Below the pieces are notes generated by a model. It did no database searches. It was given only the letters and a program-made list of their open reading frames with translations, and had not been told where the DNA came from. From the IMG/VR virus record IMGVR_UViG_3300013121_000038, positions 38,312-102,311 of that record: a stretch of DNA of 64,000 bases; one strand, 5' to 3'. Every line of letters begins with the position of its first letter. Positions within the stretch are counted from its first letter, which is position 1. This DNA comes from a virus (lineage: Duplodnaviria; Caudoviricetes). A program made the position numbers and the translations under genes. Shown here piece by piece: positions 1 through 19,305 of this stretch.

Positions 1-1410
1 AAGACCTTCTACAACGCTCACGCCTTCCAGCACCACGCGAACAAGGACACCGCACGCGCGTTCGGGGTTCCTGTCGTTTCCGTCCTGAATCCGCGCATGA
101 AGCGCGTCGAGCTCATCATCAAGCTCGACCGCGCGGCGGCGCGCGCCCAGGGCGCCGACGGCATCATCACCCGCATCGACAACGGCGAGTTCCCAGACGT
201 CTCGATGGGATGCAAGGTCCCGTACGACGTCTGCTCGATCTGCGCCCACCGCTCGAAGACGCGGAACGACTACTGCCAGCACATGCGGCCGCCGGAAGAG
301 CTCCGGCACATCTACGGCCCGAACAAGATCCTGCCGGATGGTCGCAAGATCTACGTCATCAACACCATCCCCCGCTTCTTCGACATCTCCTTCGTCTTCA
401 TCGGCGCCGACAAGACGGCCAAGGTGATGGCGAAGCTGGCCTCCAATGGTGCGCATGTCTGCCTGGGTGAAGTGTGTGCGATACCTGCCGGAGCAGGAGC
501 GACTGGGCCTCAACTGTATGGACCCAGCGGCAACCCTCTCGATGTTCGAGACCTTCACAAGGTCGCCTCCGCCTGCGACGACCGGACCGGGCCATGTGGC
601 CGCCGATGCGCTGACTGCTCCGAGCGAGACGCCTGCGAAGAGGAGAAGCTCGCTTCCGCCTTCCATGTGAAGTCGGCCGGCAAGAAGATTGCCGAGATCG
701 TGAAGGACGTCCCAGCCGGTGTCTTCTCGATGAAGCGCCTGCCGGAGATGGAGAAGCGGGAGCCTGACATCTCCCGGGAGGACCTCGACCGGATGTCTGA
801 GCGTCCTCTTGCGTCATCCCTCGGCGCCGCCGCGCGGATGGGGATCGTCCTCAAGCCCCACGAATTCCAGAGGGTTGTGCTCAAGCGGATGGGAGAAGAT
901 GCGCTGATCTCCCACCTCGACAAGCACCACCACGTCTTCCGCGAGGTGCCGGACGCCGGCGAGAGCCTCTCCTGCGACGTCCGCGACCCGCTCGACGAAG
1001 TCTTCGACCTCTTGAAGAAGTACATCCGGTCACGTACCGCTCTTGGACCGTCTTTCCAGATGCGGGTGATGGTGGTCGGGAAGTCGAAAAATGTCCTTCC
1101 CACTAGAACCCCAATCGGCAACTCTCTTCTCGACAAGGTGAGCGCCGCGTACAACAGCTACCGGCGTGGAGTTCTGGAGAAGGTCTCGCAGGTGATCGAA
1201 GAAGTGAAGAGCGACCCAAGGTTGGCGGAAGCGGTTCTCGGAGACGGACTCAGCATGATGTTCAAGACGGCCAGCTCCGAGATCCTCTTTCCCGACTCGG
1301 TGAAGTACATGTTGGGCGCTCATCTGCAAGATCGTGGTCTGCTGTGCAAGTCGGCCGCTGGCGCGGTCGTTCTCGATGACTCGGTCTTTTCGGAGACCAA
1401 CTCGGCCTAG
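1..1410 (+). CDS. Putative prohead (capsid maturation) protease, 5'-truncated
   Basis: Frame is open from base 1 (KTFYNAHAFQHHANKD...). Motifs F-x-HH-x-NKD, DVSMGC-x-V-x3-CSIC...YC-x-H and FFDISFV-x2-GAD resemble phage prohead serine proteases with a Zn-ribbon insert. First gene of the head module. Confidence 0.7.
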   Translation, partial: KTFYNAHAFQHHANKDTARAFGVPVVSVLNPRMKRVELIIKLDRAAARAQGADGIITRIDNGEFPDVSMGCKVPYDVCSICAHRSKTRNDYCQHMRPPEELRHIYGPNKILPDGRKIYVINTIPRFFDISFVFIGADKTAKVMAKLASNGAHVCLGEVCAIPAGAGATGPQLYGPSGNPLDVRDLHKVASACDDRTGPCGRRCADCSERDACEEEKLASAFHVKSAGKKIAEIVKDVPAGVFSMKRLPEMEKREPDISREDLDRMSERPLASSLGAAARMGIVLKPHEFQRVVLKRMGEDALISHLDKHHHVFREVPDAGESLSCDVRDPLDEVFDLLKKYIRSRTALGPSFQMRVMVVGKSKNVLPTRTPIGNSLLDKVSAAYNSYRRGVLEKVSQVIEEVKSDPRLAEAVLGDGLSMMFKTASSEILFPDSVKYMLGAHLQDRGLLCKSAAGAVVLDDSVFSETNSA

Positions 1411-1470
1411 AGGCATCCGCCTCAGAGACGGCCACACCAACCCCTGAAGTACCGAACCAGGAGAAACGAC

Positions 1471-2268
1471 ATGCCGATGGATCCACAGCTCGCTGCCATC
1501 TACGGGACCAACCAGGACGAGAGCGACGTCGAGAAGCTCGCCGCCGCCGAGCTCGCCGAGGAGCTCGCAGACGAGGGCGAGGAGGTCGAGGAGTCCGACC
1601 TCTCCGACGAGGAGGCCGAGGAGCTCGCCCAGCAGCTTCTCGCCGCCGAGGGCGAGGAGGGCGCGGAGCAGGGTGACGAGGAGGACGAGGAGGGCGCCGC
1701 CGTCGAGGAGCCGGGCGAGGAGGAGCAGGAGAAGCTCTCCGAGGCCGACTACCTGGGCCGCGTCATGGCCCACGCCTACACCCAGGAGCTCCGCAAGATC
1801 GCCGCCGTCGGCGACTCCAGCGCCTACGAGGGCAAGGACACCGCGTCCCGCGCCCAGAAGGTCGGCGGCTGGGCTCGTCGTCAGGGCCACCGTGCTGCCG
1901 GCGCCGCCAAGGCCTTCGGCAAGCACTTCAAGGGCGGCGACAAGTGGTCCCTGAAGGGCCAGCACGCCGGCAAGACCTGGGGTGCTCGCGCCGCCGTCGG
2001 TGCGGCTGCCGGTGCTGCCGGCTACGGCGCCTACCGGAAGTTCAAGGGCAAGGGCAAGAAGAAGCAGTCCGCCGCCGAGCCGTCGGCCCTCGACATCCTC
2101 GCCGAGCGCCGCGCGCTGGAGATCCTGGCCGAGAACGGCATCGACCCGACCCAGGAGCAGGAGAAGACCAGCGCCTCCGAGCCCGAGATGGAGGCCCTCG
2201 GCAACGCCGTCGAGCAGCGGGCGTACGCGCTGCTCCAGGCCAACGGCTACATCCAGGAGCAGGAGTAG
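1471..2268 (+). CDS. Acidic scaffold/internal head protein with a central basic Gly-rich cassette
   Basis: Very acidic N- and C-termini, GGAG RBS, located between protease and major capsid; several K-x-[AS] motifs. Confidence 0.6.
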   Translation: MPMDPQLAAIYGTNQDESDVEKLAAAELAEELADEGEEVEESDLSDEEAEELAQQLLAAEGEEGAEQGDEEDEEGAAVEEPGEEEQEKLSEADYLGRVMAHAYTQELRKIAAVGDSSAYEGKDTASRAQKVGGWARRQGHRAAGAAKAFGKHFKGGDKWSLKGQHAGKTWGARAAVGAAAGAAGYGAYRKFKGKGKKKQSAAEPSALDILAERRALEILAENGIDPTQEQEKTSASEPEMEALGNAVEQRAYALLQANGYIQEQE

Positions 2269-2274
2269 CACCTT

Positions 2275-2311
2275 CCTGGTGGGCGGCGGGTACGAGACGC
2301 CGCCCACCAGG
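2275..2311 (+). terminator. 14-bp stem-loop (terminator or mRNA-stabilising hairpin)
   Basis: CCTGGTGGGCGGCG-N9-CGCCGCCCACCAGG immediately after the stop codon; no strong U-tract. Confidence 0.5.
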
Positions 2312-2329
2312 CTGTAGTTCGGAGTGCGC

Positions 2330-2710
2330 ATGCCAGCTTGGATCCACGACAGGGCAGAGCACATCCAGAAGAAGAACCCGTCGATGCCGAAGAGCCAGGC
2401 CTTCGCCATCGCCACGCAGCAGTCGCACGCGACAGGACACACCCCGCAGGGCTACGGAACGGCAGAGGGCAAGAGGAAGGCGAAGAGGAAGTACGACAAG
2501 CCGGCGTCGAGCTACACGCAGACGGCGGACCCTAGCAGCAAGACCAAGTCGAGCGGCCTCAACTTGGTTTTCCTGAAAGGGTTCACAAGCGAGCTTGAGA
2601 AGATCTCAGGCGTGTCTGTGAAGAAGAGGTTGGAGCACCCAGCGGAGAAGCCGTCGGCGACTCCTGAGAACTTTCCACCGCCCCTCGCGTCAGCAGCAGG
2701 GGACAGATAG
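2330..2710 (+). CDS. Small basic head-module protein
   Basis: GGAG RBS before ATG 2330; SQAFAIAT helix motif; FTSELEKIS motif shared with other head-module proteins. Confidence 0.6.
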   Translation: MPAWIHDRAEHIQKKNPSMPKSQAFAIATQQSHATGHTPQGYGTAEGKRKAKRKYDKPASSYTQTADPSSKTKSSGLNLVFLKGFTSELEKISGVSVKKRLEHPAEKPSATPENFPPPLASAAGDR

Positions 2711-2722
2711 GACGGAGATGCG

Positions 2723-4288
2723 ATGAAGACCAAGCTCGCCGGTCACCTGCCACTCCAGGACGCCATCGCGCGGACCATCGAGGAGGCGCGCGAGAAGATG
2801 AAGCTCGCCTCCGATGCCTGCGAGGGGGAGGACAAGGAGAAGGTGAAGAAGCTGGTGAAGTTCGAGAAGAAGGAGCACGGCCACATCCCCTCCGAGAAGG
2901 AGGAGCGGGCCGAGTACGAGAAGAAGAGCTCCATCATCGACACCGACGACCCGGAGGAGGTGGAGAAGCTGGCCGCCTCGCTCGACTTCCTCGCCGAGAA
3001 GATCGCCGGCGACTCCGTCACCATCGGCGGCGAGTCGCGTCAGGGCGGCCAGGTCCTCGCGACCATGAACGCCGTCGGCGGCACCCAGCCCTACAAGAAG
3101 GACTCGTCCAAGAGCCACAACGTGCCGACGTCGACCGGCATGAAGTCGACGAAGGACAACCCAGGCGCGTCCACCGCCGTCCCCACGGACGACGAGCGGG
3201 CCCCTGGCGGCACCGGGGCCAAGTACCCCGCCAAGGGCGTCCTCAAGACCGGCGGCGTGAAGAAGACGGCCATGGACTACCACCAGGCCCGCGCGGTCGG
3301 CCAGGCCGTCGGCCTCGGCACCCATCTCGTGGGCGGCGCCATCGGCTACCAGAAGGGCAAGGAGCAGCACGCCCGAGGCGAGAAGCACACCTTCGGGGTG
3401 CCGCAGGGCGCGGCCGCCCTCTTCCTCCCAGGCGGCGCCGGCTACCAGCTCGGCCGCTACATGGGCCACAACGCGGCCGGCGGCGAGAAGAAGAAGGGGA
3501 AGAAGAAGCACAGCTCCGTCGAGCGGCTCCAGCTCGCGCTGGCAGCCCAGACCGGCATCGTCACCCCGGAGATGGCTGCCGACATGGAGAAGGACGCCGG
3601 CAAGGTCACCGACGCCCTGAAGTCCATGGGCGGCAAGGCGCGCGCCGCCGGCGGCCGCGTCATGGAGCTCCTCAAGGGCGGGAAGTTCGGCGCTGGCAAC
3701 CGCGCCAGCAACTACCGGCCTGGTGCGAGAGGCACCATCCCTTCGAGCGAGGCGTGGAAGTCGCTCGGGACTCGTGCTGCGGCCGGAACGGCTGCCGTCG
3801 TCGGCGGGAAGAAGGCCTACGACAAGCTGAAGAAGAAGGGCAAGAAGAAGGCCGCCGGCGTCGAGGCCGTCGACTACATCCTCTCCAAGATCAGCGCCGT
3901 CGAGAACGGTGGCGAGAGCCCGCAGGGTGGTGAGCAGCTCAGCAACACCGCCCCGGTGCCCTCCAACGCCGGCCGTGAGCTCATCCGGAACAAGGACGGC
4001 ATCAAGAACGTGACCAAGGCCCAGGCCAAGTCCCCTCGCAAGAAGGAGCTGGCCGAGGTCCTGACCGAGCCTGCCATGAGCGCGGCTCACGACTCCAAGG
4101 TCAACGAGAACCTGCGGAACGCCGCGAAGGGCGGCGTGAAGATCGCAGCGGCACGGGTGTTCCTCCAGAAGATCGCTTCGGAGGGCTGCCAGTGCTCTGG
4201 CGCCGGCAAGTGCCGGTTCTGCCAGATGCAGGAGAAGGCTGCCGCACTTCGCGGCAACGGAGCCGAGGCCGTCGCCTCGGAGGCATGA
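2723..4288 (+). CDS. Internal head/scaffold polyprotein with two Gly-rich basic cassettes
   Basis: 521 aa, strong codon bias, internal GGES-x-QGG repeat, C-terminal C-x-C-x5-C-x2-C, many K-x-[AS] motifs. Confidence 0.65.
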   Translation: MKTKLAGHLPLQDAIARTIEEAREKMKLASDACEGEDKEKVKKLVKFEKKEHGHIPSEKEERAEYEKKSSIIDTDDPEEVEKLAASLDFLAEKIAGDSVTIGGESRQGGQVLATMNAVGGTQPYKKDSSKSHNVPTSTGMKSTKDNPGASTAVPTDDERAPGGTGAKYPAKGVLKTGGVKKTAMDYHQARAVGQAVGLGTHLVGGAIGYQKGKEQHARGEKHTFGVPQGAAALFLPGGAGYQLGRYMGHNAAGGEKKKGKKKHSSVERLQLALAAQTGIVTPEMAADMEKDAGKVTDALKSMGGKARAAGGRVMELLKGGKFGAGNRASNYRPGARGTIPSSEAWKSLGTRAAAGTAAVVGGKKAYDKLKKKGKKKAAGVEAVDYILSKISAVENGGESPQGGEQLSNTAPVPSNAGRELIRNKDGIKNVTKAQAKSPRKKELAEVLTEPAMSAAHDSKVNENLRNAAKGGVKIAAARVFLQKIASEGCQCSGAGKCRFCQMQEKAAALRGNGAEAVASEA

Positions 4289-4298
4289 GGAGCTGACG

Positions 4299-4694
4299 AT
4301 GCCCGACAAGATCAGCAACGTCCAGGTCGCCCAGCTCCAGAAGCTGGCGAGCACCACCCTCCGGAAGCTGGCGGGGGAGAACAAGACGCTCCGCGACGAG
4401 AACGGTGACCTGAAGACCAAGGTCGCCGCCTTCGAGAAGAGGGCTCGCGCGGAGAAGATCGCGTCCGAGATGGAGTCCAAGGGGCTCAACCTCGGATCCA
4501 CCTTCGAGCAGAAGGTGGCAGAGCTGCTGGAGAACGACCGACTCGACGTCGTCGAGGAGGCCGTCGGTCTGGCGGCGCCGCAGATCAAGCTCGCCTCCGT
4601 CCACGAGGACGGCGTCGAGGTGGAGAGCACGGGAGACGACGCCGCCGACAGGGCGACGCAGGTCTTCGCAGCAGGGCTCGCCTCCCTCGGCTGA
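4299..4694 (+). CDS. Coiled-coil scaffold-like protein
   Basis: Heptad pattern; GAGGAG RBS; just upstream of the decoration and capsid genes. Confidence 0.55.
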   Translation: MPDKISNVQVAQLQKLASTTLRKLAGENKTLRDENGDLKTKVAAFEKRARAEKIASEMESKGLNLGSTFEQKVAELLENDRLDVVEEAVGLAAPQIKLASVHEDGVEVESTGDDAADRATQVFAAGLASLG

Positions 4695-4747
4695 GGAACT
4701 TCAACCCCACGCTGTAGATCGACACACCCTTCAAGGAGAACACCAAG

Positions 4748-5230
4748 ATGTCCGCACCCAACTTCGAGCTGATCACGGAGCTCCAGGTCACCCTCCGCAG
4801 GGACTTCCCGCTGGCGGTGCCTGGCATCCTCAACCCCATGGACGCTCAGCCCCTCGTCGAGGGCGAGTGGCTGGAGCTGGACGCCAACTACCTGCTGAAG
4901 CGCGGCAGCGTCGCTGGCGGCGGCGTGAACGGGGCAGTCTTCCCGGTCCACACCGAGCGCGGTCGGTACGACACGCAGGCGGTCCAGAAGGCCAACGTCA
5001 TCTTCGCCGGCCAGTACGAGGCCGAGACGAAGATCTTCGACACCGGCGGGACGTACAACCCCGGCACCGAGCTGATGGTCGACGACGTGACCATCGGCGG
5101 CATCGTCCGGCGCGGCCTCAAGCCGGCCACGGCGGGCCACATCGTCGTCGGCCACGTCTCCAAGCTCACCGGCTCCGGCGCGTCGGCGAAGCTCCGCTTC
5201 ATCCACGGCGCCAACTACATGAAGGCCTAA
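4748..5230 (+). CDS. Putative head decoration/cement protein
   Basis: 160 aa beta-rich protein directly upstream of the major capsid gene; AAGGAG RBS. Confidence 0.6.
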   Translation: MSAPNFELITELQVTLRRDFPLAVPGILNPMDAQPLVEGEWLELDANYLLKRGSVAGGGVNGAVFPVHTERGRYDTQAVQKANVIFAGQYEAETKIFDTGGTYNPGTELMVDDVTIGGIVRRGLKPATAGHIVVGHVSKLTGSGASAKLRFIHGANYMKA

Positions 5231-5264
5231 GGCCTAGGCCGACACGAAAGGAACGGAGAAAACC

Positions 5265-6404
5265 ATGAGCGTGCCAGCCAAGGTCCTGAACGACCTGTTC
5301 TTCGAGAAGGTCGCCACCCAGGAGGGCAAGGACAAGATCGCCGAGTTCGGCGGGACGTACATCCGCGACCGACTCCGCGAGGTCTCCTTCGCCCGCAAGG
5401 TCCTCCCCCCGCAGCCCGTCCAGCGGTCCGAGTGCCAGCGGTCCGTCAACCACGACACCCTGGTCAAGATCGTCGACATCGAGCCCAACTCGAAGGCGAT
5501 GGCCATGGGCTTCCGTGGCCAGCCCACGGCGCGCTTCATCCGCGCGCCGCGCTACGAGATCCCCTTCTTCACGATCTCGTCCGAGAAGTTCGAGAAGACG
5601 GAGCAGGAGCTCCTCGCCTACGAGATGCCCATCACCAAGATCATCGAGGAGAACTCGGTGAAGGACATCCAGAGCATCGAGGACCGCCAGTTCCTGCTCT
5701 TCATCGAGGCCGCCGTCCAGGGCTTCCAGACCGACGCGAACGGAGGGGCCACGGCGTTCAACCACACGAACGTCAACGCCGGCTCCGTGAAGTCGGCCTC
5801 CGTGGTGAAGGGTGAGGGCGCCCTCACCGCCACGACCGAGGACTTCACCGTCTACCCCGTCCTCAAGACGGACTTCATCAAGATGAAGAAGCTCCTGCAC
5901 CGCCGGCACCTCCGCGCGGAGCGGATGCTTCTCACCGAGCCGGACTACGACGACATCTCGTCGTGGACCATCCAGGACGTCGGCATGACGATCGCCGGCG
6001 AGACCTCCACCGAGGGCTGGAAGAGCGACACGGTGGTGGGCCTGAAGATCATCCGCACCATCAAGACCGAGATCCTCCGCGAGGGCAACATCTACTGCTT
6101 CACCGCGCCGGAGTTCTGCGGCCGCTTCTACGTCCTCAACCAGACCAAGTTCTACATCGACAAGATCGCGAACCTGATCACCTGGCAGTCGTGGGAGGAC
6201 ATCGCGATCGGCATCGGCAACATCTCGTCGATCGTGAAGATGGAGCTCTACCCCGGCTCCGTCACGCCTGGTGAGGAGACCGCCATCGGCGGCGGCATCG
6301 ACTACCGCGCGGCCCTGCCCGTGGACGAGCTCGACCCGCTCCTCGCCCCGACCAACAACAAGGTCGACCAGGGCCTGAAGTACCCGAACGTCTCCCAGTT
6401 CTAG
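5265..6404 (+). CDS. Major capsid protein (HK97-fold, inferred)
   Basis: 379 aa; IRDRLRE-x-SFARK-x-LPP and ENSVKDIQ-x2-ED-x2-F segments typical of phage capsid proteins; extreme codon bias; followed by a strong hairpin. Confidence 0.8.
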   Translation: MSVPAKVLNDLFFEKVATQEGKDKIAEFGGTYIRDRLREVSFARKVLPPQPVQRSECQRSVNHDTLVKIVDIEPNSKAMAMGFRGQPTARFIRAPRYEIPFFTISSEKFEKTEQELLAYEMPITKIIEENSVKDIQSIEDRQFLLFIEAAVQGFQTDANGGATAFNHTNVNAGSVKSASVVKGEGALTATTEDFTVYPVLKTDFIKMKKLLHRRHLRAERMLLTEPDYDDISSWTIQDVGMTIAGETSTEGWKSDTVVGLKIIRTIKTEILREGNIYCFTAPEFCGRFYVLNQTKFYIDKIANLITWQSWEDIAIGIGNISSIVKMELYPGSVTPGEETAIGGGIDYRAALPVDELDPLLAPTNNKVDQGLKYPNVSQF

Positions 6405-6424
6405 CCATCCGGCCGGGGACAACG

Positions 6425-6467
6425 TGAGGGGAGGAGGAGCCACAACTCCTCCTCCCCTCATCGCTTT
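6425..6467 (+). terminator. 15-bp perfect stem-loop after the major capsid gene
   Basis: TGAGGGGAGGAGGAG-N6-CTCCTCCTCCCCTCA followed by TCGCTTT. Confidence 0.65.
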
Positions 6468-6487
6468 CCAGGGGGTAGGATGCCGCC

Positions 6488-6784
6488 ATGAAGGTCTTCA
6501 ACCTGACCAACCACCCGCTCGACTTCCACGGCCGGGTCATCGCGCCGAACGGCGGCAGCCTGGACTACCCAGAGCTCGACGCCTTCCTGCCGTCGCGTGA
6601 CAAGAAGCTGGAGGAGCTCCGCTACATCGCCTTCGGCTTCCTCCCGACCTGGTGGAAGAAGCAGCAGGAGAAGAAGCCACAGGTGCCGCACAAGCGCGTG
6701 ACCCTCAAGCTCTCGGACGACGTGAAGGTCTTCGACAGCGTCTCGACCAGGACTTCCAGGCACGGGAAGAAGTACCAGGGGTGA
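6488..6784 (+). CDS. Hypothetical protein
   Basis: 98 aa ORF with coding-like codon usage in the operon. Confidence 0.65.
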   Translation: MKVFNLTNHPLDFHGRVIAPNGGSLDYPELDAFLPSRDKKLEELRYIAFGFLPTWWKKQQEKKPQVPHKRVTLKLSDDVKVFDSVSTRTSRHGKKYQG

Positions 6785-6787
6785 GGC

Positions 6788-7006
6788 ATGGCGACCGAAT
6801 CAGCCATCATCCGGATGAGGAAGATCCTGGAGAGCAAGGGCATCTCTCAAGACCTGCTGAAGGACACCCTGATGGTGTACGGCCGTGACTGGCTGCGGGA
6901 AGTAGAGGGTGACGTGGTCGGGGAGGAGGCCCTGGCGGCGCGCCGCACCAAGGCGTTCCGGATGGTCGCTGACTCCTGCCCTGACCTCTTCCCGCTCAAG
7001 GACTGA
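6788..7006 (+). CDS. Hypothetical protein
   Basis: 72 aa, tightly coupled to both neighbours. Confidence 0.6.
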   Translation: MATESAIIRMRKILESKGISQDLLKDTLMVYGRDWLREVEGDVVGEEALAARRTKAFRMVADSCPDLFPLKD

Positions 7007-7554
7007 TGATGGCCGACGACCTCGGATACGGCGCAGCAGGCACCAACCTCCCGGCTCCGTCCATGGAGTCGGCTGAGGGCGTGGTGCTGCCGGCGGCGCC
7101 GACGGAGCTCAACGACTTCGTCAACCAGGTCCGGCTCTTCATGCGGGACTACTCGGAGCTGAACCGCCTCATCGCCGGGGAAGAATCCTCGAACCGCCAG
7201 ATCATGTGGGCCGTCTTGGACGCCCTCGACGATTTCAACACAGACCCGCCCTTCACCCGCTTCAACCTGAACAGCTTCCCGTCTCGCAGCCTGCTGCTAC
7301 GGCTCACCGTCATCTCGCTGCTGGAGTCGATCGGCCTCCTCCAGACGCGCAACCATCTCCAGTTCTCGGACGGAGGCATCCAGGTCGGCATCAACGACAA
7401 GACGCCATTCCTCCAGTCCTGGATCCAGCTCTTCCGTTCTCGCTCCGACCAGAAGAGCCAGCGGCTCAAGGTCGCCTACAACATCGAGGCAGCCTGGGGC
7501 GGCGGCATCCACAGCGAGTACCGCTTCGTGAACAACTTCTACGGAGAATGGTGA
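7006..7554 (+). CDS. Putative head-tail adaptor/neck protein
   Basis: 182 aa helical protein (VRLFMRDY...ALDDFN...FSDGG); position after the capsid gene is typical of adaptors. Confidence 0.55.
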   Translation: MMADDLGYGAAGTNLPAPSMESAEGVVLPAAPTELNDFVNQVRLFMRDYSELNRLIAGEESSNRQIMWAVLDALDDFNTDPPFTRFNLNSFPSRSLLLRLTVISLLESIGLLQTRNHLQFSDGGIQVGINDKTPFLQSWIQLFRSRSDQKSQRLKVAYNIEAAWGGGIHSEYRFVNNFYGEW

Positions 7555-8132
7555 TGCGGCCCAACATCGACTCCTTCTTCGACGAGCTGCTGAACGTCTC
7601 GGAAGAGCTCACCAAGCAGTCGAATGCCCCTGTCCCTACCCCGAAGAAGGTTGGGCTTTCTGGCAAGGGCGCTCTCATCGGTGGCGCTCTCGGCGCCGGC
7701 CTGGGCGGAATCCGCGCCATCGGCCGAGAGACGCACGAGCGTGCGGCTGATGACCGTGCCGGCCTGACCGACGAGCAGAAGAAGGTCCTGAGGAAGAAGC
7801 GTCTCGCCGGTCACGCAGCCAACATCCTGGCCTGGAGCGGCGCAGGCTCTGGCATCGGTAGCCTGGAGCGCAAGGCGCGCGGTGTCGTCGGCGAGGCCGG
7901 AGAGAAGGTGTGGGATTCCATCGACTACGCCCGCGCGCACGCAGACGAGGTCGTCGCGGATGCTCGCAAGCACGCGGACCAGGTCGTCGCCGACGCCCAT
8001 GCCCGCGCCAACCAGACTGTTCACGACGCGCCGAAGAACTTCGTCAAGGGCATCGGTCACGCTGCGGCAAACGCCGGAAAGCGAGTCGGTCGCGGCATCA
8101 AGTCCATCTTCACCAGGAAGCCGAAGGTGTAA
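7554..8132 (+). CDS. Glycine-zipper internal virion protein
   Basis: ATG overlaps the upstream TGA; FFDELL...ELTKQS leader followed by GALIGGALGAGLGG; ARAHADEVVAD tandem repeat. Confidence 0.65.
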   Translation: MRPNIDSFFDELLNVSEELTKQSNAPVPTPKKVGLSGKGALIGGALGAGLGGIRAIGRETHERAADDRAGLTDEQKKVLRKKRLAGHAANILAWSGAGSGIGSLERKARGVVGEAGEKVWDSIDYARAHADEVVADARKHADQVVADAHARANQTVHDAPKNFVKGIGHAAANAGKRVGRGIKSIFTRKPKV

Positions 8133-8141
8133 GGAGCCAGC

Positions 8142-8282
8142 ATGGCCATCGCAGCGTTCAAGGTCGCCGAGTTCAGCACCGCCCTGGATCTCCAGAAGTT
8201 CGTGGCGACTGGGGCGCCCGTCGTTGTCGTCTCCATCGTCTTCAACGGCGCCAGCGGCAAGTACGTCCTGTTCTACACCTAG
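8142..8282 (+). CDS. Small hypothetical protein (46 aa, below the ORF-track cutoff)
   Basis: AAGGAG RBS; MAIAAFKVAEF...KYVLFYT fills the intergenic gap. Confidence 0.65.
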   Translation: MAIAAFKVAEFSTALDLQKFVATGAPVVVVSIVFNGASGKYVLFYT

Positions 8283-8295
8283 CCAGGGAGCGGCC

Positions 8296-8922
8296 GTGGA
8301 CGACCTCACCTTCTATCAGGCGCTGCGCGGTCCAAGGGCCGAAGGCGGCGAGGCATGTCTGCGCTCCCTCATGAAGAAGACTGCCCAGACAACGCCGGTC
8401 AAGAAGCCGATCTCCGTCCAGGACACTCATGCCATATCCAACGACATCCAGGCTCGGATGGCGGAGGTCGTGAAGAGGCTGAAGGCGATCAAAGCCGGCA
8501 AGATCAAGAAGGGCTCGGCCGAGGAAGCGAAGAAGCAGGTCCTCGACCGACTCAAGGCTCATGCTCCTGAGCTCATCGGCGGCGGTGTCGGAACCGTGGC
8601 GGGTGGTCTGTACGGTTATCTTGCGTCCCGCCGCAAGGATCCGAAGAAGCCGTCGGCCATGGAAGAGGACGCCGCCAAGATGCTGCGGGCGTACGAACGT
8701 GCCGAGCAGGAGATGAAGGAAGAGGGCAAGAAGCCAGGCTTCCCGCACAAGATGCGTGGTGTCTACGCCCGTGCCTTCGCCGACGCCTCGAAGGTGATGA
8801 AGGAGCATCCAGTCGCCACCGGCGCGATGTATGGCGGCGCCGCTGGTTCGGCCGGGGCAGGGCTCGGTCGTATCGCCTACGACCTCTACAACAGCAGAAT
8901 CGGAAAGGGCCTCGACGTATGA
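8296..8922 (+). CDS. Glycine-zipper internal virion protein
   Basis: GTG start after GGGAG; LIGGGVGTVAGGLYGY and GAMYGGAAGSAGAGLG zippers; KKTA motif. Confidence 0.65.
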   Translation: MDDLTFYQALRGPRAEGGEACLRSLMKKTAQTTPVKKPISVQDTHAISNDIQARMAEVVKRLKAIKAGKIKKGSAEEAKKQVLDRLKAHAPELIGGGVGTVAGGLYGYLASRRKDPKKPSAMEEDAAKMLRAYERAEQEMKEEGKKPGFPHKMRGVYARAFADASKVMKEHPVATGAMYGGAAGSAGAGLGRIAYDLYNSRIGKGLDV

Positions 8923-10166
8923 ACCACGAAGCTCAACTCGCCAAGACCCTCGGAGACGACGAGCAGGAGAAGCTCGCGTCCCACTTTGCTTCCTACACCG
9001 TCGACGAGCTCGCGTCTCTCCTGAAGGAGAAGACTGCGCTCGCTCCGATGCCTGCTCCTGCGGCGACCCAGGGCGATCTCATGCGTGAGCGCACCAAGGG
9101 CGGGCGGATGATCAACACGCTGAAGAATACCTTCAAGCCGCCAGTGCTGGCGTCGGTGAAGATCGCCGACGAATGGGGCCGGCAGCTAGCGAACGAGGAC
9201 ATCGAGAAGAACGCCTTCATGGATCAGGCGCTCGGCCTCGCCGTCGGTCATCACTATGGCAAGGAGCAGAAGAAGCGTGGCGAGAACTACAGCTTCGGAG
9301 TTCCGCAGGGCGCCGCTGCTCTCTTCCTGCCTGGGGGAGCCGGCTACCAGATCGGCCGCTACATCGGCCACAACGACAAGAGCGTGAAGAAGGGCAAGAA
9401 GAAGAAGGCCAGCGCCCAGCTCGTCTACGAAGCGCTCATGGAGAAGATCTCTACCGGCGCCGTCGGCAACCTCGGCGGCCAGATGCCGAGCCTCACACCG
9501 AAGATGCCGACTGCTCCCAAGGTCGGCGCCGGCAACATGATGCCGCGAATCGGAACGGTCGGAGGTGGCGGGCTCGGCAAGACCGTGACGGGCGCGGCCA
9601 GGCTGCGCGCGGAAATGGACAAGGTGGCCTTCTGGGGCTCCGGCACCATCGCCAAGGGCATCAACTGGGCCGCCCCTCATCTCGCCAAGGCCACCAGCGC
9701 CCTCGCGTCGGCTGGGCCAGGCAAGTCCGCTCTCATCGGCGCCGGCGTGGGTGCTGCCGGCGGTGCCGCGCGGCACGCGCTGTCGGGCAGAGACCCCCAG
9801 ACGGGGCAGAAGCGCACCACCCTGCTAGGTTCCATGGCCGGCGGCGCCGCTCTCGGTGGCGCGGCTGGCGCTGGTCTCAGTGCAGGAGCCAGCCGCTTCC
9901 AGGGCTCTGCGCTGCATGGGCGCATGACCAGCGGCAACTTCAAGTTCAACACCCAGCCTCCGGCTGCGGCCGCAGGAGCAGCCGGCGCCGCCGGGCCGAC
10001 GCCTGTCGCGCAGCCGGCGCCAGTCGGTCCAGGCGGACTGCGTCCGAATCCAGAAGGCGCTCCGGCACACTGGCGAAACGCTCCGCCTCCGCCGGCTGCT
10101 GGTCCTCAGGCAGCCGGTCCACAGCCAACGCCAGTGAAGAAGGGCTGGTTCGGGCTCGGCAGGTAG
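8919..10166 (+). CDS. Multi-cassette glycine-zipper internal virion polyprotein
   Basis: 415 aa; segments delimited by EKLA, EKTA, VKIA, EKNA, KKAS, EKIS and DKVA; shares a cassette with 2723-4288. Confidence 0.65.
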   Translation: MNHEAQLAKTLGDDEQEKLASHFASYTVDELASLLKEKTALAPMPAPAATQGDLMRERTKGGRMINTLKNTFKPPVLASVKIADEWGRQLANEDIEKNAFMDQALGLAVGHHYGKEQKKRGENYSFGVPQGAAALFLPGGAGYQIGRYIGHNDKSVKKGKKKKASAQLVYEALMEKISTGAVGNLGGQMPSLTPKMPTAPKVGAGNMMPRIGTVGGGGLGKTVTGAARLRAEMDKVAFWGSGTIAKGINWAAPHLAKATSALASAGPGKSALIGAGVGAAGGAARHALSGRDPQTGQKRTTLLGSMAGGAALGGAAGAGLSAGASRFQGSALHGRMTSGNFKFNTQPPAAAAGAAGAAGPTPVAQPAPVGPGGLRPNPEGAPAHWRNAPPPPAAGPQAAGPQPTPVKKGWFGLGR

Positions 10167-10169
10167 TCG

Positions 10170-11081
10170 ATGATCCCTCTCGTCACCAAGCTGTGGGTTC
10201 GGTCCTTCAACATGGACCACATGGACGTGTTCTGGGAGATCGGCCCGGTGCCGGCGACCAGCGACACGGCTCCCCACACCATCTTCGACTGCGAGTTCAC
10301 CGTCCTCCGTTCGCAGGCGGCGCTTGGTCCGTACGAGGCGATCAGCTTGCCGTTGATGGACCAGTACCACTTCCGCGACGTGAAGATCTCCCGTCTCCAC
10401 AAGTGGCGGCAGTGGTTCTACAAGCTGAAGGTCACCAACAAGAAGACAGGCGAGGAGAAGGAGTACGGGCCATGCTCCGACGTCGAGCCGGAGCCGGACC
10501 TCATCGCCGCAGAGATCATCCGGCAAGAGGACATGCTCTTCCGGAAGTTCGTGGGTCGACGCTGCTGGCTCCTACCTGTGCGCACCTTCGGCCCTCGCTG
10601 TTCCTGCTTCGACACTACGCTGCAACGGGTCACACGCTCTGCGCATCTGCCGTGCTTCGGCACCGGATGGCTCGGCGGGTACATGCGCCCTGTAGAGGTC
10701 TTCGTCCAGTTCGACCCGAACCCGAAGCGCACAGTGCTTCAGGCCACAGGCGAGATGCAGCCGACGAATGCCTCCGCCAGGATGTCTTCCTTCCCACCCA
10801 CCAGCCCGCGTGACATCATCATCGAGTCGGAAAACCGTCGCTGGCGTGTGGTGAATGTCTCACAAACTCAACGGCTTAGGGCGGCCGTACACCAGGAGCT
10901 CACTCTCCACGAAGTTCCCAAGACAGACGTCGAGTACTCCATCCCTCTCGACGTCGACGCGCGCTCGGTGACTCCGTCCGACGAGGGGAACTTCACGAAC
11001 GCGCAGAACATCGAGAAGCATGGCGACGACTCCGACATTCTCTCGTTCTGGACTGGCAAGGCACGCGGCACTCTTCGATGA
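10170..11081 (+). CDS. Putative head-closure/neck protein
   Basis: RCSCFD...CFGTGWLGGY metal-binding motif and DIIIE...RRWRV beta segment; neck position. Confidence 0.55.
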   Translation: MIPLVTKLWVRSFNMDHMDVFWEIGPVPATSDTAPHTIFDCEFTVLRSQAALGPYEAISLPLMDQYHFRDVKISRLHKWRQWFYKLKVTNKKTGEEKEYGPCSDVEPEPDLIAAEIIRQEDMLFRKFVGRRCWLLPVRTFGPRCSCFDTTLQRVTRSAHLPCFGTGWLGGYMRPVEVFVQFDPNPKRTVLQATGEMQPTNASARMSSFPPTSPRDIIIESENRRWRVVNVSQTQRLRAAVHQELTLHEVPKTDVEYSIPLDVDARSVTPSDEGNFTNAQNIEKHGDDSDILSFWTGKARGTLR

Positions 11082-11391
11082 GATCGAGAAGATCTCCGAA
11101 GAGGCGCACGTGATGCAGCCGGCTCCAGTTGCGCCCAAGAAGAAGCCGAACTGGAAGAACGTCCTCAAGGCTGGTGCCGGCTACGCACTCGGTGGCGCGG
11201 CCGGCTACGTCGGCGGCATGGCAGCAGAGCGCGGGCTCGCGCACGTCTTCAGGAACAAGTGGCCGTCGATGACGCCTGAGCAACGGTACAAGGTGCTCTA
11301 TCCGGCTCTCGGCGCCGCGACCGTCGGCCTCATGGCAGTGAACCACGCCTCCCAGATTCGCCGTCAGCAGGCTCTGGAGGGAGATGAGTGA
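11020..11391 (+). CDS. Small glycine-zipper internal virion protein
   Basis: ALFDEIEKIS leader followed by GAGYALGGAAGYVGG. Confidence 0.6.
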   Translation: MATTPTFSRSGLARHAALFDEIEKISEEAHVMQPAPVAPKKKPNWKNVLKAGAGYALGGAAGYVGGMAAERGLAHVFRNKWPSMTPEQRYKVLYPALGAATVGLMAVNHASQIRRQQALEGDE

Positions 11392-12115
11392 CGCCAAGAT
11401 CAGCTCCGGCGTTCCTCAGCCTCAGGGCGTGGGAGAAGATCCTCTCTTCCACTACACCAAGCTCTTCGTCCGCTTCCTCCAGGTGGTCTTCTCGACGTTC
11501 GAGAAGGGCGCCTACCGCTGGCTGCCGGATCTGGAGCTGACGGACATCGTCATCTCCGACCAAGGCGTGCTCGGCAACCCGGTCGTCGAGAAGCGTCCTT
11601 CCATCGTATGCATGAGAGGTCATGCGTCTTGGTCGAACGTCTCGATGGACCAGTTCAAGAGCTTCAACTTCCAGAATGGGACGAGAACGCACACCGACCT
11701 CATCGCCAGCTCCATGCTCTACCAGTGCATGGCCAAGGAGGGTCTGGAGGCTCAGCGCCTCGCTTGGATCGCTTCGTACGCAACGCGAGTGCTGAAGCGC
11801 AACCTGATGCGCGCAGGTCTTCACCGGGTGGGAGAGAACGTGGAGATGGGCCCGGAGTCGGATGCAAGCTCACTCCTCGAAGACGCTGGCAAGGAGATTT
11901 CGCTCGTCCCTGTCTCGGTCCCGTTCTTCTTCCAGGACACCTATGGCATCGGGCCGGTAGACAATCTCCTTCTCAAAGACCTCAACCTGAGACTAACTTC
12001 TGAGATCAACAGCCTGGCGGAGCGACAGGTCGGACTTCGGCCACCAGCCATCGGCGGAAGAGTTCTTGATTCCTACAAGGTGATCTCGATCACGCAGAGG
12101 GTGCCGAAGAAGTAG
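11384..12115 (+). CDS. Putative tail terminator/completion protein
   Basis: 243 aa immediately upstream of the sheath; RPSIV motif; synteny. Confidence 0.5.
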   Translation: MSDAKISSGVPQPQGVGEDPLFHYTKLFVRFLQVVFSTFEKGAYRWLPDLELTDIVISDQGVLGNPVVEKRPSIVCMRGHASWSNVSMDQFKSFNFQNGTRTHTDLIASSMLYQCMAKEGLEAQRLAWIASYATRVLKRNLMRAGLHRVGENVEMGPESDASSLLEDAGKEISLVPVSVPFFFQDTYGIGPVDNLLLKDLNLRLTSEINSLAERQVGLRPPAIGGRVLDSYKVISITQRVPKK

Positions 12116-15100: not shown

Positions 15101-15471
15101 GCGGCACCTACATCCTCATGCAGGAGGTGCAGGGTGGTCCGGTCTTCAGCCGGCACCAGCTCTCCACCGACGTGAGCCAGGTCGAGGTCCGAGAGCTCTC
15201 GGTCACCAAGGTGGTGGACTTCGTCGCGAAGTTCCTCCGCGCCGGCCTCCGCCGCTTCATCGGCCGCCAGAACATCAACGCCGTCTTCCTCGACTCGGTC
15301 GGTACCACGATCCAGGGCATGCTCCAGTTCCTCACCGAGAACGGCATCATCAACGGGGCCAACCTCAACAACATCATCCAGGACCCGAGTGCGCCTGACA
15401 CCGTCATGGTCGACGTGACCCTCGACGTGCCGTTCCCCTGCAACTACATCCGCCTGACCCTCGTGGTCTGA
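12148..15471 (+). CDS. Contractile tail sheath protein
   Basis: 1107 aa; N-terminal PGV-x-V and VVVGP; C-terminal RHQLST, RELSV-x-KVVDF and V-x-V-x-LDVPFPCNYIRLTL sheath signatures. Confidence 0.9.
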   Translation: MANAAAELAQPGVKVLQSIRKTSPTFLRPTLAPVVVGPAFEIIEALTADGTLNAKAKYGAYAQLGKTISQSSFPDPRGNVDELDVLEETIKAYLFTAGRLTELPMSPGDSFLLASHKASTAVFKVTGNNFAVQGKNIILAVDQPVAADTTEDVTVAFTGGSPYTAAEVVAAINTAFGFELAVVTKDGAGAVTGFELISPTTGALSSLTVRGGGTANEDLGLGFAAAVKVQERIEASGFRAFDLSNNATVSTWVEFARGEYWTGAVASGASAWPAKAARRPLTGADVAGRDVQVQFGTGAGQIPVVPGDQIVADGIVVKNGEIARVESEKIKIGTVNTLLSSVDSDGNYTNKVYDDVALGLLLDPNSPFSPKYVWFKANGLSPNAAATAAKMVGTATAQAATKPTVTGQADATPDVFQGLGFDYTLTSGGVTETKHLTFAQADAFATVQEIADYINANTNDIAVTLSGNKLVFEGPDAGADKSIGILDSGSANTGLGITAALSDTGTDPEFANLPSTTLKFSFDDSDHVYDVSFTDKSLTQAIDRINSLVGVTVASNVGDQLVLTSQLSGVASRVKVVEGSAMTELGFTAGQTSDDAGGTKGTGRPSPNAYLDGANNLVIGPQLVRDPVTGAPLDFMTSSASLYIQYKGLRRDVSPAAKVAGVLRLPGVDTLSQVLDPVDARNPLALGMYLAMLNAPNFEVKGLGVDEVSAAAPEGTELAYARAAAMLEAEEVYAIAPLSQNEVVHQTFITHATVMSEPEQAGERIVFFNKKTPTTQSPTAAANGVGAKATATANQLILDVTPQQGLVDAGVNPALPLSAATGVYIEFNWKGVFYRYNVSSVNGGRADLRVSFGAGENDDFFYSTVTMPTDVLDAAWSMKVRGASVVIPGSNPPKTDYSLVADTVSEANGGVGNRRAFSVFPDTVKTTLAGIEVEIPGYYACAAAAGMVAGLPPQQGFTNYPITGLTGVSGTEKFTRKQLNKMAGGGTYILMQEVQGGPVFSRHQLSTDVSQVEVRELSVTKVVDFVAKFLRAGLRRFIGRQNINAVFLDSVGTTIQGMLQFLTENGIINGANLNNIIQDPSAPDTVMVDVTLDVPFPCNYIRLTLVV

Positions 15472-18672: not shown

Positions 18673-19305
18673 ATGCCGAACCCGGTCACCGCAGTACCTG
18701 CCACACCTCTGCCGATCGACGCGAACGTCAACGCGGCCGCAGAGGCGTTTCTCACCTCTCTTCTCCAGATCTTCGAGCACGGCACCACAGGGCTCTCTGG
18801 ACAAGAGAACACCGACCCCTCTTACCAGCAGCTAGACGGGGCTGGGACCATCGGCCCCATGGTCCTTCGCTCGCGTGAGCAGCAGCTCTTCTTCAGGCAG
18901 GTAGGGCTTGCGCTGGCCAAGAACTTCGCCAACCTCACCGTCACCGTCCCAGAGCCGTACTTCTCCCAGTCGTACACCAGCGACGGCGTGACGCGTGGAG
19001 ACGCGGTGGTGATGACCTCAGAGGGGCATGTGGGACCTGGGTCCTGCACCACTGACGTCGGCTCCCTCCTCGTCGGAATGGCCAGGGACGACGCCAGCGC
19101 CGGCGCCACAGTGGTTGTGGTGCTCTTCGGCTCCTTCTTCGACGTCCTCGTCGGAGCAGCTCTCAACGAGGAGTTCTTCCTCGGCCCGACTGGTCGCCCA
19201 GTGCGCTTCGATGACCTCGTACCTGGGCAGCGCATCATCCGTCTCGGCTACGCCAGTTCTTCCACGGACCTCGAAGTCCGCATCGACGACCTCGGAGTGA
19301 GGTAA
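18673..19305 (+). CDS. Virion appendage protein with a C-terminal cement-like domain
   Basis: GDAVV...VGMA...FFLG-x2-G...LGYA domain, paralogous to the C-termini of 23740-24582 and 25077-26603. Confidence 0.6.
   Translation: MPNPVTAVPATPLPIDANVNAAAEAFLTSLLQIFEHGTTGLSGQENTDPSYQQLDGAGTIGPMVLRSREQQLFFRQVGLALAKNFANLTVTVPEPYFSQSYTSDGVTRGDAVVMTSEGHVGPGSCTTDVGSLLVGMARDDASAGATVVVVLFGSFFDVLVGAALNEEFFLGPTGRPVRFDDLVPGQRIIRLGYASSSTDLEVRIDDLGVR

What the first reader, a model, noticed from the sequence alone, without database searches (positions are those of the whole stretch)
3356..9413. The same peptide cassette occurs in two otherwise unrelated genes
GKEQHARGEKHTFGVPQGAAALFLPGGAGYQLGRYMGHN...KKGKKKHS (3356-3514, gene 2723) versus GKEQKKRGENYSFGVPQGAAALFLPGGAGYQIGRYIGHN...KKGKKKKAS (9258-9413, gene 8919). 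The 19-aa core FGVPQGAAALFLPGGAGYQ is identical while several third codon positions differ, which points to selection on the peptide. Similarity stops near the K-x-[AS] boundaries, as expected for a portable module.
Basis: seen in the sequence. Interest (0 to 1): 0.75.

Follow-up and report, generated by a model that had tools for sequence, protein, structure and literature searches.

The report
Portable helical-hairpin module in phage head proteins
Two unrelated head-region genes of an uncultivated ~200-kb phage really do share a conserved ~50-residue peptide; it belongs to a previously unannotated small protein module that occurs as a stand-alone gene or sits inside many different carrier proteins in related phages, and its function is still unknown.

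Summary
Gene 2723 (aa 204-249) and gene 8919 (aa 106-151) share a 46-48 aa block: 73% identity, BLASTP E 6e-21, and no other similarity. The 19-aa identical core has 9 synonymous and 0 non-synonymous differences.

It is more than a two-copy curiosity. A profile search of 1.84 billion proteins found 60 cluster representatives carrying the same module. No Pfam, NCBIfam, PHROG or PDB family matches it.

The module has four parts:
- an N-terminal E-K-x-A tag;
- two GxxxGxxxG helices;
- a conserved R-G-E loop and a P-G-G-x-G-Y-Q-x-G-R turn-helix;
- a Lys-rich tail.

AlphaFold2 gives a helical hairpin (pLDDT 76).

Evidence that it is portable:
- It lies at very different positions in at least eight carrier families.
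- All three carrier families examined closely have orthologues without it.
- 9 of 11 near-complete related genomes lack it.
- In some phages it is a free-standing 76-85 aa gene.

Function is inferred, not shown. It is most likely an accessory peptide carried inside the phage head. It may be cut out at flanking E-K-x-[A/S] motifs, which are about 4-fold enriched in head-module proteins.

I class it as a new variant of a known kind (promiscuous accessory domains of phage structural proteins). The scan's first readers had noted this same stretch before, in overlapping notes.

The parts
2723..4288 (+). Carrier gene 1 (521 aa). It lies between the prohead protease and the major capsid protein. It has conserved N- and C-terminal domains and a hypervariable Gly/Ala/Lys-rich middle.
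   Evidence: ORF with GC3 0.93. Homologues in about 74 related loci align only over aa 1-180 and 381-503. No Pfam, PHROG or NCBIfam hit.
3260..3271 (+). K-K-T-A, the tag-like motif upstream of cassette copy 1. It aligns with the E-K-x-A column of the family.
   Evidence: Family alignment A6; coordinates.
3332..3469 (+). Cassette copy 1, conserved core (aa 204-249): glycine-zipper helix, basic loop, turn-helix ending in His.
   Evidence: BLASTP E 6e-21; DNA repeat D1; HMM hit E 2e-25; coordinates.
3470..3514 (+). Lys-rich tail after copy 1, ending in H-S-S. It is partly native to the carrier: L003's cassette-less homologue has a very similar Lys run ending H-A-S-S.
3764..3859 (+). Second, generic module in gene 2723: a Gly/Ala-rich segment followed by a poly-Lys run. 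It is not a member of the cassette family.
   Evidence: No significant BLASTP similarity to the cassette.
8919..10166 (+). Carrier gene 2 (415 aa). A Gly/Ala/Pro-rich 'beads on a string' protein between the capsid genes and the tail sheath.
   Evidence: ORF. Positional orthologues in L018, L010, L003, L117 and L242.
9204..9215 (+). E-K-N-A tag at the N-terminal boundary of cassette copy 2.
   Evidence: K and A are at least 90% conserved in 61 members; coordinates.
9234..9371 (+). Cassette copy 2, conserved core (aa 106-151).
   Evidence: Predicted helices at residues 2-27, 35-42 and 48-58 of window:9198-9428.
9372..9413 (+). Lys-rich tail after copy 2, ending in K-A-S.
9018..9038 (+). L-L-K-E-K-T-A motif. 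It is the left end of the ~140-aa block (including the cassette) that is absent from the closest relative's orthologue.
   Evidence: Alignment of gene 8919 with L003:15891-16400; coordinates.
9435..9452 (+). L-M-E-K-I-S motif, the right end of the same indel block.
1..1410 (+). Prohead (head maturation) protease. Its 5' end lies outside the window; the full gene is G000:38027-39721 (564 aa).
   Evidence: phrog_18299, E 6e-6. tblastn to Bacillus phage G gp19 (E 2e-17) and to a Gordonia phage 'capsid maturation protease'. gp19 is named a head maturation protease in PMC12484599.
5265..6404 (+). Major capsid protein. It was used to collect the 80 related loci. Its N-terminus carries F-F-E-K-V-A (5298-5315).
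   Evidence: phrog_2522, E 5e-11; 170 relatives in IMG/VR; the motif is conserved in 78/81 orthologues.

Best explanation
The shared peptide is one member of a previously unannotated, autonomously folding protein module of about 55-65 residues.

Its layout, from N to C:
- an [E/D]-K-x-A tag;
- a first GxxxGxxxG helix;
- a conserved basic loop (K-x-Q-x-x-R-G-E ... F-G);
- a short helix;
- an L-L-P-G-G-x-G-Y-Q-x-G-R...H turn-helix carrying a second GxxxGxxxG;
- a disordered Lys-rich tail.

As far as seen, it is confined to the head-gene module of an uncultivated clade of roughly 190-210 kb, high-GC, contractile-tailed phages that also encode their own multisubunit RNA polymerase.

Shown here:
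- The module is under purifying selection.
- It is a free-standing 76-85 aa gene in some phages.
- In others it is embedded in the hypervariable Gly/Ala/Lys-rich linkers of several unrelated head-module proteins.
- Each of the three carriers examined closely has orthologues without it.
- Most complete relatives lack it altogether, so it is accessory.

Inferred:
- It moves by in-frame recombination inside low-complexity linker DNA: (AAG)n Lys runs, GGC/GCC runs, and the recurring GAG-AAG-NNN-GCC that encodes the tag.
- It is a payload rather than an address label. It rides into the prohead as part of, or alongside, head-module proteins.
- It is probably released by the prohead protease at the flanking hydrophobic-E-K-x-[A/S] motifs.
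- Its poly-Lys tail would keep it on the packaged DNA, so it would be ejected with the DNA.

What the hairpin itself binds is not known. Candidates are itself (through the glycine zippers), DNA, or a host target.
For: Reality and selection.

Family:
- hmmsearch of profile A5 against 1.84e9 representatives gave 60 hits at E<=1e-3 and 50 at E<=1e-10. Carriers are 76-1089 aa, with the match at very different positions.
- In the 61-sequence alignment K4, A6, G13, G17, G21, G28, E29, P45, G46, G47, Y50, Q51, G53, R54 and H58 are conserved in at least 90% of sequences.
- No Pfam, NCBIfam, PHROG or PDB family matches.
- AlphaFold2 with that alignment gives pLDDT 76, three helices and a disordered tail.

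Portability:
- With the cassette masked, carriers fall into at least 8 multi-member groups plus many singletons. Within the gene-8919 group the cassette sits at relative positions 0.19-0.95.
- P0019 is a positional orthologue of gene 8919.
- About 74 homologues of gene 2723 lack the cassette.
- L003 (capsid protein 89% identical) has a gene-8919 orthologue missing a ~140-aa block that includes it.
- The 769-aa protein of this genome has an unrelated insert where its L084 and G001 orthologues have the cassette.
- 9 of 11 genomes at least 90% complete have no copy; 2 have one each.
- The gene-8919 cassette is 83-85% identical to those of P0004 and P0003, whose flanks are 28-44% identical. It is only 60% identical to that of P0023, whose flanks are 50-62% identical.

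Autonomy: there is an 85-aa free-standing gene at the gene-8919 position in L242, between homologues of genes 7006 and 10170, and a 76-aa gene in L241.

Protease-site idea:
- E-K-x-[AS] occurs 37 times against 9.5+-3.0 in shuffled head-module proteins (z 9.2). Tail genes and the rest of the genome show no excess.
- The motif is conserved at fixed alignment columns, including the capsid protein N-terminus in 78/81 orthologues.
- It is also enriched in the head module of the distant cultured relative Arash (14 observed, about 2 expected).
- A prohead protease gene heads the module.
- Proteins encoded between the protease and the capsid gene in Arash are annotated as structural proteins on the basis of virion mass spectrometry.
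Against: - No cleavage, packaging, DNA binding or oligomerisation has been observed. All functional steps are inference.
- I chose the E-K-x-[AS] motif after looking at the sequences, so its z-score is post hoc.
- The motif is not clearly enriched in phage G, which has a homologous protease (8 observed, 4.3 expected).
- In the model the tag lies inside a long helix, which is not an obviously accessible cleavage site.
- The cassette tree is largely unresolved, so the number and direction of transfers cannot be stated.
- Part of the presence/absence pattern could be vertical descent with many losses rather than transfer.
- The carriers are assumed to be virion-internal from gene position only.
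Confidence: 0.65

Rival explanations
1. The module is a capsid-targeting or cargo-loading signal. It is an address label that docks whatever protein carries it onto the capsid interior, scaffold or portal, like the T4 capsid targeting sequence or encapsulin cargo-loading peptides.
For: It is short and portable, and it is confined to head-module proteins next to a protease and an HK97-type capsid gene. It is bounded by a motif that could be a processing site.
Against: 9 of 11 near-complete relatives have no copy although they keep the capsid protein (59-89% identical among the 80 loci fetched), and cassette-less carrier orthologues are found in about 74 related loci. Some phages have it as a free-standing 76-85 aa gene with nothing attached to target. 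It is usually internal, not terminal.
Confidence: 0.1
2. The module is a membrane-active glycine-zipper hairpin. It is a cationic helical hairpin that inserts into the host membrane, either at ejection (as a conduit or depolariser) or during lysis or exclusion.
For: It has two GxxxGxxxG helices and a polybasic tail. The top structural neighbours are transmembrane helical hairpins, but with Z<=4.6, which is not significant. The genome has many Gly-zipper proteins.
Against: The maximal 19-residue Kyte-Doolittle mean has a median of 0.85 over 61 cassettes, below the usual 1.6 threshold. Only 2 of 61 reach it. Helix 1 and the loop carry conserved His, Lys, Gln, Arg and Glu. No Pfam glycine-zipper model matches.
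Confidence: 0.12
3. The module is a DNA-binding or condensing peptide. The turn-helix (L-P-G-G-x-G ... G-R) together with the poly-Lys tail would bind packaged DNA non-specifically, like the protease-released basic core peptides of adenovirus. This overlaps with the last step of the best explanation.
For: A Lys-rich tail follows nearly every copy, including the free-standing genes, which end right after it. The helix-turn-helix resembles a helix-hairpin-helix in outline; this is my reading and is only a lead.
Against: No helix-hairpin-helix Pfam model matches any of the 61 members, and no such fold appears in the structure searches. The turn has one residue more than the canonical P-G-hydrophobic-G.
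Confidence: 0.1
4. The similarity is a neutral relic of a recent intragenomic duplication or gene conversion, with no function of its own; or the two genes are diverged full-length paralogues.
For: The two copies lie 5.9 kb apart in one genome. In the C-terminal half they are each other's best match, 24/26.
Against: Synonymous divergence is high (dS 0.55 overall, about 1 in the core) with no amino-acid change in the core. The N-terminal halves match only 10/20, and other family members match better. The same module is conserved in 60 protein clusters. The flanks show no similarity.
Confidence: 0.03

Closest known systems
Promiscuous accessory domains on phage structural proteins (Ig-like domains; from my own knowledge: Fraser et al. 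2006, J Mol Biol)
   Same: A small, autonomously folding domain that is sporadically present or absent among orthologous structural proteins. It occurs in unrelated carriers, is dispensable, and is spread by recombination.
   Different: This one is an all-helical glycine-zipper hairpin, not an Ig beta-sandwich. It sits in disordered Lys-rich linkers of head-module (probably internal) proteins rather than on the virion surface. It also exists as a free-standing gene and is bounded by a recurrent E-K-x-A motif.
Protease-processed internal head and ejection proteins of T4 and of phiKZ/SPN3US-type giant phages (PMC5694885, PMC7411985, PMC10052503 were listed; their content here is from my own knowledge)
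   Same: Genes clustered with a prohead protease and capsid gene. A short recurrent motif flanks the units. The sets of proteins are variable and accessory. The virions are expected to carry many proteins, including an RNA polymerase.
   Different: Those proteases belong to the T4 gp21 family and cut after Glu in (L/I or S/A/G)-x-E. Here the protease is of the phage G gp19 type, and the candidate motif is E-K-x-[A/S]. Cleavage is unproven. No such portable hairpin is described there.
Encapsulin cargo-loading peptides and the T4 capsid targeting sequence
   Same: A short portable peptide associated with HK97-fold shells and diverse carriers.
   Different: Those are terminal, roughly 10-15 residues long, and required for loading. 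This module is about 55 residues, mostly internal, absent from most relatives, and can stand alone.
Glycine-zipper families (Pfam Gly-zipper_YMGG, Gly-zipper_Omp, Rick_17kDa_Anti)
   Same: GxxxGxxxG periodicity on helices. A weak ESM-Atlas neighbour at rank 12, score 0.76, carries Gly-zipper_YMGG.
   Different: No HMM match. The segments are not hydrophobic enough for a membrane span. The conserved polar loop and the P-G-G-x-G-Y-Q-x-G-R signature are unique to this module.

Membership tests
Any curated protein family (Pfam-A, NCBIfam, PHROGs) or solved structure | Significant profile or sequence match | tested here: not met
   No Pfam hit on the two carriers at E<=0.1, and no family shared among the 61 members. 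No PHROG. No NCBIfam. The PDB profile search gave a best E of 0.9.
Any known fold | Structural match of the predicted model | tested here: inconclusive
   Foldseek against PDB gave no match at E<=10. VIA-align wide gave a best Z of 4.6, within the noise for helical models.
Pfam glycine-zipper families (YMGG, Omp, Rick_17kDa_Anti) | GxxxGxxxG repeat | tested here: met
   G13/G17/G21 and G49/G53/G57 of window:9198-9428. The first three are at least 90% conserved.
Pfam glycine-zipper families (YMGG, Omp, Rick_17kDa_Anti) | HMM match, and a hydrophobic segment able to span a membrane | tested here: not met
   No HMM hit. The median maximal 19-residue hydropathy is 0.85, below 1.6.
Capsid targeting sequence (T4 type) / encapsulin cargo-loading peptide | Short terminal peptide present on the packaged proteins of every member of the clade | tested here: not met
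   The module is about 55 aa and mostly internal. It is absent from 9 of 11 near-complete relatives.
Capsid targeting sequence (T4 type) / encapsulin cargo-loading peptide | Binds the shell or scaffold and is needed for loading | not testable with these tools
Promiscuous accessory domain of phage structural proteins | Same domain in unrelated carriers, with orthologous carriers lacking it | tested here: met
Promiscuous accessory domain of phage structural proteins | Autonomous unit (can exist alone) | tested here: met
   Free-standing 85-aa and 76-aa genes lying inside contigs. AlphaFold2 model with pLDDT 76.
Protease-processed head polyprotein or propeptide system | Prohead protease encoded in the module | tested here: met
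   phrog_18299. Homology to phage G gp19 and to a Gordonia phage capsid maturation protease. PMC12484599. The catalytic fold could not be confirmed: the model has pLDDT 49.
Protease-processed head polyprotein or propeptide system | Recurrent site motif flanking the released units | tested here: inconclusive
   E-K-x-[AS] is enriched at z 9.2 in head-module proteins only. It is conserved at alignment columns and also enriched in Arash, but not in phage G. The motif was chosen post hoc.
Protease-processed head polyprotein or propeptide system | Observed cleavage products in virions | not testable with these tools
   There is no proteome for this uncultivated clade. As far as I read it, the Arash paper gives protein identifications and coverage, not cleavage ends.
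Helix-hairpin-helix DNA-binding motif | HhH profile or fold match | tested here: inconclusive
   No HhH Pfam family among the 61 members. None is listed by the fold searches. The resemblance is only in outline.

The most novel reading that the evidence does not exclude
The head module of this phage clade encodes polyprotein-like precursors. In this reading, short functional peptides, this hairpin among them, are delimited by E-K-x-[A/S] sites for the prohead protease. They can therefore be shuffled freely between carriers, or exist as single genes, much like peptides in neuropeptide or viral polyprotein precursors. The released cationic hairpin would travel with the DNA into the host and act as an accessory injected effector, for example in anti-defence or DNA protection.
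Probability: 0.25. Interest if true: 0.8.

Novelty: new variant of a known kind. Interest (0 to 1): 0.55.

Why it matters
The work defines an undescribed, well-conserved small domain family: 60 clusters in public metagenomes and no entry in Pfam, NCBIfam, PHROGs or the PDB.

It also gives an unusually clean natural record of module shuffling. The same unit appears as a stand-alone gene, fused at many positions, and absent, all within one clade of large uncultivated phages that probably package many proteins, including their RNA polymerase.

If the flanking E-K-x-[A/S] motif is the protease site, it would supply the cleavage code for a protease family (phage G gp19 / Arash gp222 type) whose cleavage specificity I did not find described. 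It would also show that phage heads can deliver interchangeable processed peptides.

The module and motif are concrete handles for proteomics on cultivable relatives and for annotating the 'dark' head genes of these phages.

Tried and rejected
- Exact-word and pattern searches were nearly blind to the family. The search for homologous proteins on the cassette region found only the window's two proteins. The search for related loci with single or few sequences found nothing, or only the L018/L010 contigs. One metagenome hit, L084, came from the core alignment. Only the full HMMER profile search revealed the family.
- A degenerate DNA pattern for P-G-G-x-G-Y-Q-x-G-R gave 19 stretches in IMG/VR, of which 3 contigs were true. 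It gave 120 stretches in bacterial and archaeal genomes, none true.
- Fold searches, ESM Atlas and the PDB profile search gave nothing usable.
- The protease catalytic domain was folded with 12 homologues. The pLDDT was 48.7, too poor to search with, so the protease fold is unconfirmed. No Pfam or PDB sequence hit.
- The maximum-likelihood tree of cassettes has 40 of 58 inner branches unresolved. It cannot give donors or an order of events.
- Within-genome homogenisation (gene conversion) of the two window copies is inconclusive. The C-terminal halves match 24/26, but P0003, P0004 and P0011 reach 22/26.
- The idea that every genome of the clade keeps at least one copy is rejected.
- K-x-[AS] as such is hardly above chance (z 2.7).
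- The 769-aa carrier as portal: no PHROG, Pfam or phage-database support.

Full report
WHAT THE WINDOW IS

The window is the right 64 kb of a 102-kb IMG/VR virus record, estimated about 55% complete. The DNA is 60-67% G+C.

Gene order in the first 16 kb:
- a prohead protease (1-1410; its 5' end lies outside the window);
- four proteins with no annotation (1471, 2324, 2723, 4299);
- a 160-aa protein (4748);
- the major capsid protein (5265-6404, phrog_2522);
- several small proteins;
- gene 8919;
- gene 10170;
- a 1107-aa tail sheath (12148-15471, phrog_279).

Upstream in the same record lie the large terminase and, according to an earlier first-reader note that I did not check on G000 itself, a fused beta-beta' RNA polymerase. 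The related contig L084 does encode a fused beta-beta' polymerase by Pfam.

The capsid protein has 170 relatives in IMG/VR. Of these, 80 were fetched, at 59-89% identity, many from contigs of 177-210 kb. The only cultured relatives are distant, at about 30% identity: Salmonella phage Arash and three Vibrio phages. The Arash virion proteome contains 116 proteins, including abundant RNA polymerase subunits (PMC10585845).

BLASTP of the two gene products gives a single segment: aa 203-250 against aa 105-152, 35/48 identical, E 6e-21. It is the only significant internal similarity among head-module proteins of the whole record. It is also the longest direct DNA repeat in the region, 174 nt at 75% identity.

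Nei-Gojobori counts over 48 codons give dS 0.55 and dN 0.18. In the identical 19-residue core there are 9 synonymous and no non-synonymous differences. So the copies are old and the peptide is constrained. This is neither a recent duplication nor an assembly artefact.

IT IS A DOMAIN FAMILY

Word-based searches saw nothing beyond the window. Among the 80 related loci, the cassette appeared only in the gene-8919 homologues of L018 and L010. A metagenome scan added L084, where the cassette sits in a 747-aa protein.

A profile of these five copies was searched with HMMER against 1.84 billion representatives. It found 60 proteins at E<=1e-3, 50 of them at E<=1e-10.

In the 61-sequence alignment the following are at least 90% conserved: an upstream Lys and Ala (the E-K-x-A tag), three glycines spaced i/i+4/i+8, an R-G-E loop, and P-G-G-x-G-Y-Q-x-G-R...H. 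A variable Lys/Glu-rich tail follows.

No Pfam, NCBIfam, PHROG or PDB sequence family matches.

With this alignment AlphaFold2 predicts a long helix (residues 2-27 of window:9198-9428), a loop, a short helix (35-42), a P-G-G turn, a third helix (48-58) and a disordered tail, at mean pLDDT 76. Foldseek finds nothing, and VIA-align gives only Z<=4.6.

IT IS PORTABLE

With the cassette masked, the carriers fall into many unrelated groups.

(a) The gene-2723 family.
- About 74 homologues in related loci align only over aa 1-180 and 381-503. Their middles are hypervariable and none has the cassette.
- More distant members (P0032, P0033, P0039, P0041, P0047, P0049, P0051) do carry one in that middle region.
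- L003's homologue has, at the same place, a generic Gly/Ala-rich segment followed by a very similar Lys run ending H-A-S-S. So the Lys tail of copy 1 is at least partly native to the carrier.

(b) The gene-8919 family.
- This is a positionally conserved gene between homologues of gene 7006 and gene 10170.
- The cassette lies anywhere from residue 41 to residue 623.
- In L003, the closest relative (capsid protein 89% identical), a ~140-aa block including the cassette is missing. Its ends coincide with two L-x-E-K-x-[AS] motifs in the window.

(c) A 747-869 aa family.
- L084 and the complete genome G001 have the cassette at one hot spot.
- The window's own genome has an unrelated Gln/Lys-rich insert at that site.

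(d) Free-standing genes.
- In L242, an 84-kb contig with the same protease-capsid-sheath synteny, the gene at the 8919 position is only 85 aa: two tag motifs, the hairpin, the Lys tail, then the stop codon.
- L241 has a 76-aa gene of the same kind.

(e) Complete genomes. Of 11 genomes at least 90% complete, nine have no copy and two have one.

(f) Cassette and flanks disagree. The cassette of gene 8919 is 83-85% identical to those of P0004 and P0003, whose flanks are 28-44% identical. It is only 60% identical to that of P0023, whose flanks are 50-62% identical.

The cassette tree itself is too short to resolve donors. Whether the two window copies have homogenised each other cannot be decided.

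HOW IT PROBABLY MOVES (INFERENCE)

All insertion sites lie in low-complexity linker DNA: (AAG)n Lys runs, GGC/GCC runs, and the repeated GAG-AAG-NNN-GCC of the tag. Such DNA offers microhomology for in-frame illegitimate or homeologous recombination. The L003 indel, bounded by two copies of the tag motif, fits this.

WHAT IT PROBABLY DOES (INFERENCE)

The module is dispensable, sporadic and able to stand alone. That makes it more likely a payload than an address label.

Its carriers lie between the protease and the sheath. In Arash, proteins encoded between the protease and the capsid gene are annotated as structural proteins from virion mass spectrometry.

The tag motif E-K-x-[A/S]:
- It occurs 37 times in head-module proteins against 9.5+-3.0 after shuffling (z 9.2). 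Tail genes and the rest of the genome show no excess.
- It is conserved at fixed alignment columns, including the capsid protein N-terminus in 78 of 81 orthologues.
- It is likewise enriched in the Arash head module, typically preceded by a hydrophobic residue: 14 observed against about 2 expected.
- It is not clearly enriched in phage G.
- I chose this motif after seeing the data. Plain K-x-[AS] is barely enriched (z 2.7).

The protease is homologous to phage G gp19 and to a Gordonia phage 'capsid maturation protease' (PMC12484599). Its fold could not be confirmed.

The simplest model is that head-module proteins are cut at these motifs, which frees the hairpin with its poly-Lys tail. The tail would then hold it on the packaged DNA.

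The hairpin is not hydrophobic enough for a membrane span: the median maximal hydropathy is 0.85. Membrane activity, DNA binding and self-association through the glycine zippers all remain open. The complex predictor was closed.

VERDICT

The thing found is a new, well-conserved, promiscuous mini-domain of phage head-module proteins. The known kind it resembles is the promiscuous accessory domain of phage structural proteins. It is a new variant of that kind because of its fold, its setting, and its bounded, possibly protease-delimited architecture. Its function is unknown and testable.

The same stretch had been noted by first readers of this scan in overlapping notes. Those notes served as leads and were tested here only in part.

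Noticed in passing
window 1-12115 and G000:9317-50426 (head module, + strand): The four-residue motif E-K-x-[A/S], usually preceded by a hydrophobic or acidic residue, is about 4-fold over-represented in head-module proteins only (37 observed against 9.5 expected). It occurs in the protease itself, the scaffold-position proteins and the capsid protein N-terminus. It is also enriched in the Salmonella phage Arash head module.
   Followed up: partly
window 7548-7600, 11080-11110, 2590-2620; L003:14285-14330 and others: A longer tag of the form F-x-D-E-L-x-K-I-[A/S] lies at or near the N-terminus of several small Gly-zipper proteins. In several family members (P0012, P0024, P0058) it directly precedes the cassette. 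It seems to be the extended form of the E-K-x-A boundary.
   Followed up: partly
G000:25736-28045 (12.6-10.3 kb upstream of the window); L084:5338-7581; L112: This conserved 747-869 aa protein of unknown function lies next to the phage RNA polymerase gene in L084. It has one hypervariable insertion hot spot between a K-[LM]-A-S motif and a (K)-K-S-S / S-A-S motif. The hot spot holds the cassette in two relatives and an unrelated Gln/Lys-rich insert in this genome.
   Followed up: partly
L084:76-4254: A single open reading frame carries both beta (Rpb2 domains 6 and 7) and beta' (Rpb1 domains 1-5) RNA polymerase modules, directly upstream of head-module genes. A first-reader note reports the same fusion in the window's genome.
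   Followed up: no
window 8919-10166 vs 2723-4288: Gene 8919 has lower third-position G+C (0.79) than gene 2723 (0.93). Its cassette copy uses several A/T-ending codons (GGA, GTT, GCT, CCT) where copy 1 has G/C. This may reflect a different history or avoidance of recombination between the copies.
   Followed up: no
window 1978-2073 and 3764-3859: Genes 1471 and 2723 each carry a generic module: a Gly/Ala-rich segment, a K-K-G-K-K-K-like run, small residues, then an amphipathic helix. It has the same architecture as the cassette unit but no significant sequence similarity to it.
   Followed up: partly
window 44901-45557 and 45570-45902 (- strand): Two adjacent minus-strand genes share a Cys/Trp-rich domain, duplicated within the first gene, and a common C-terminal I-D-Y-S-[DE]-W-A-D-D motif (BLASTP E 9e-17).
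   Followed up: no
window 18673-19305, 23740-24582, 25077-26603: Three tail-region proteins share a C-terminal domain of about 100 aa (BLASTP E 2e-8 and 1e-7). This looks like exchangeable fibre or receptor-binding tips.
   Followed up: no
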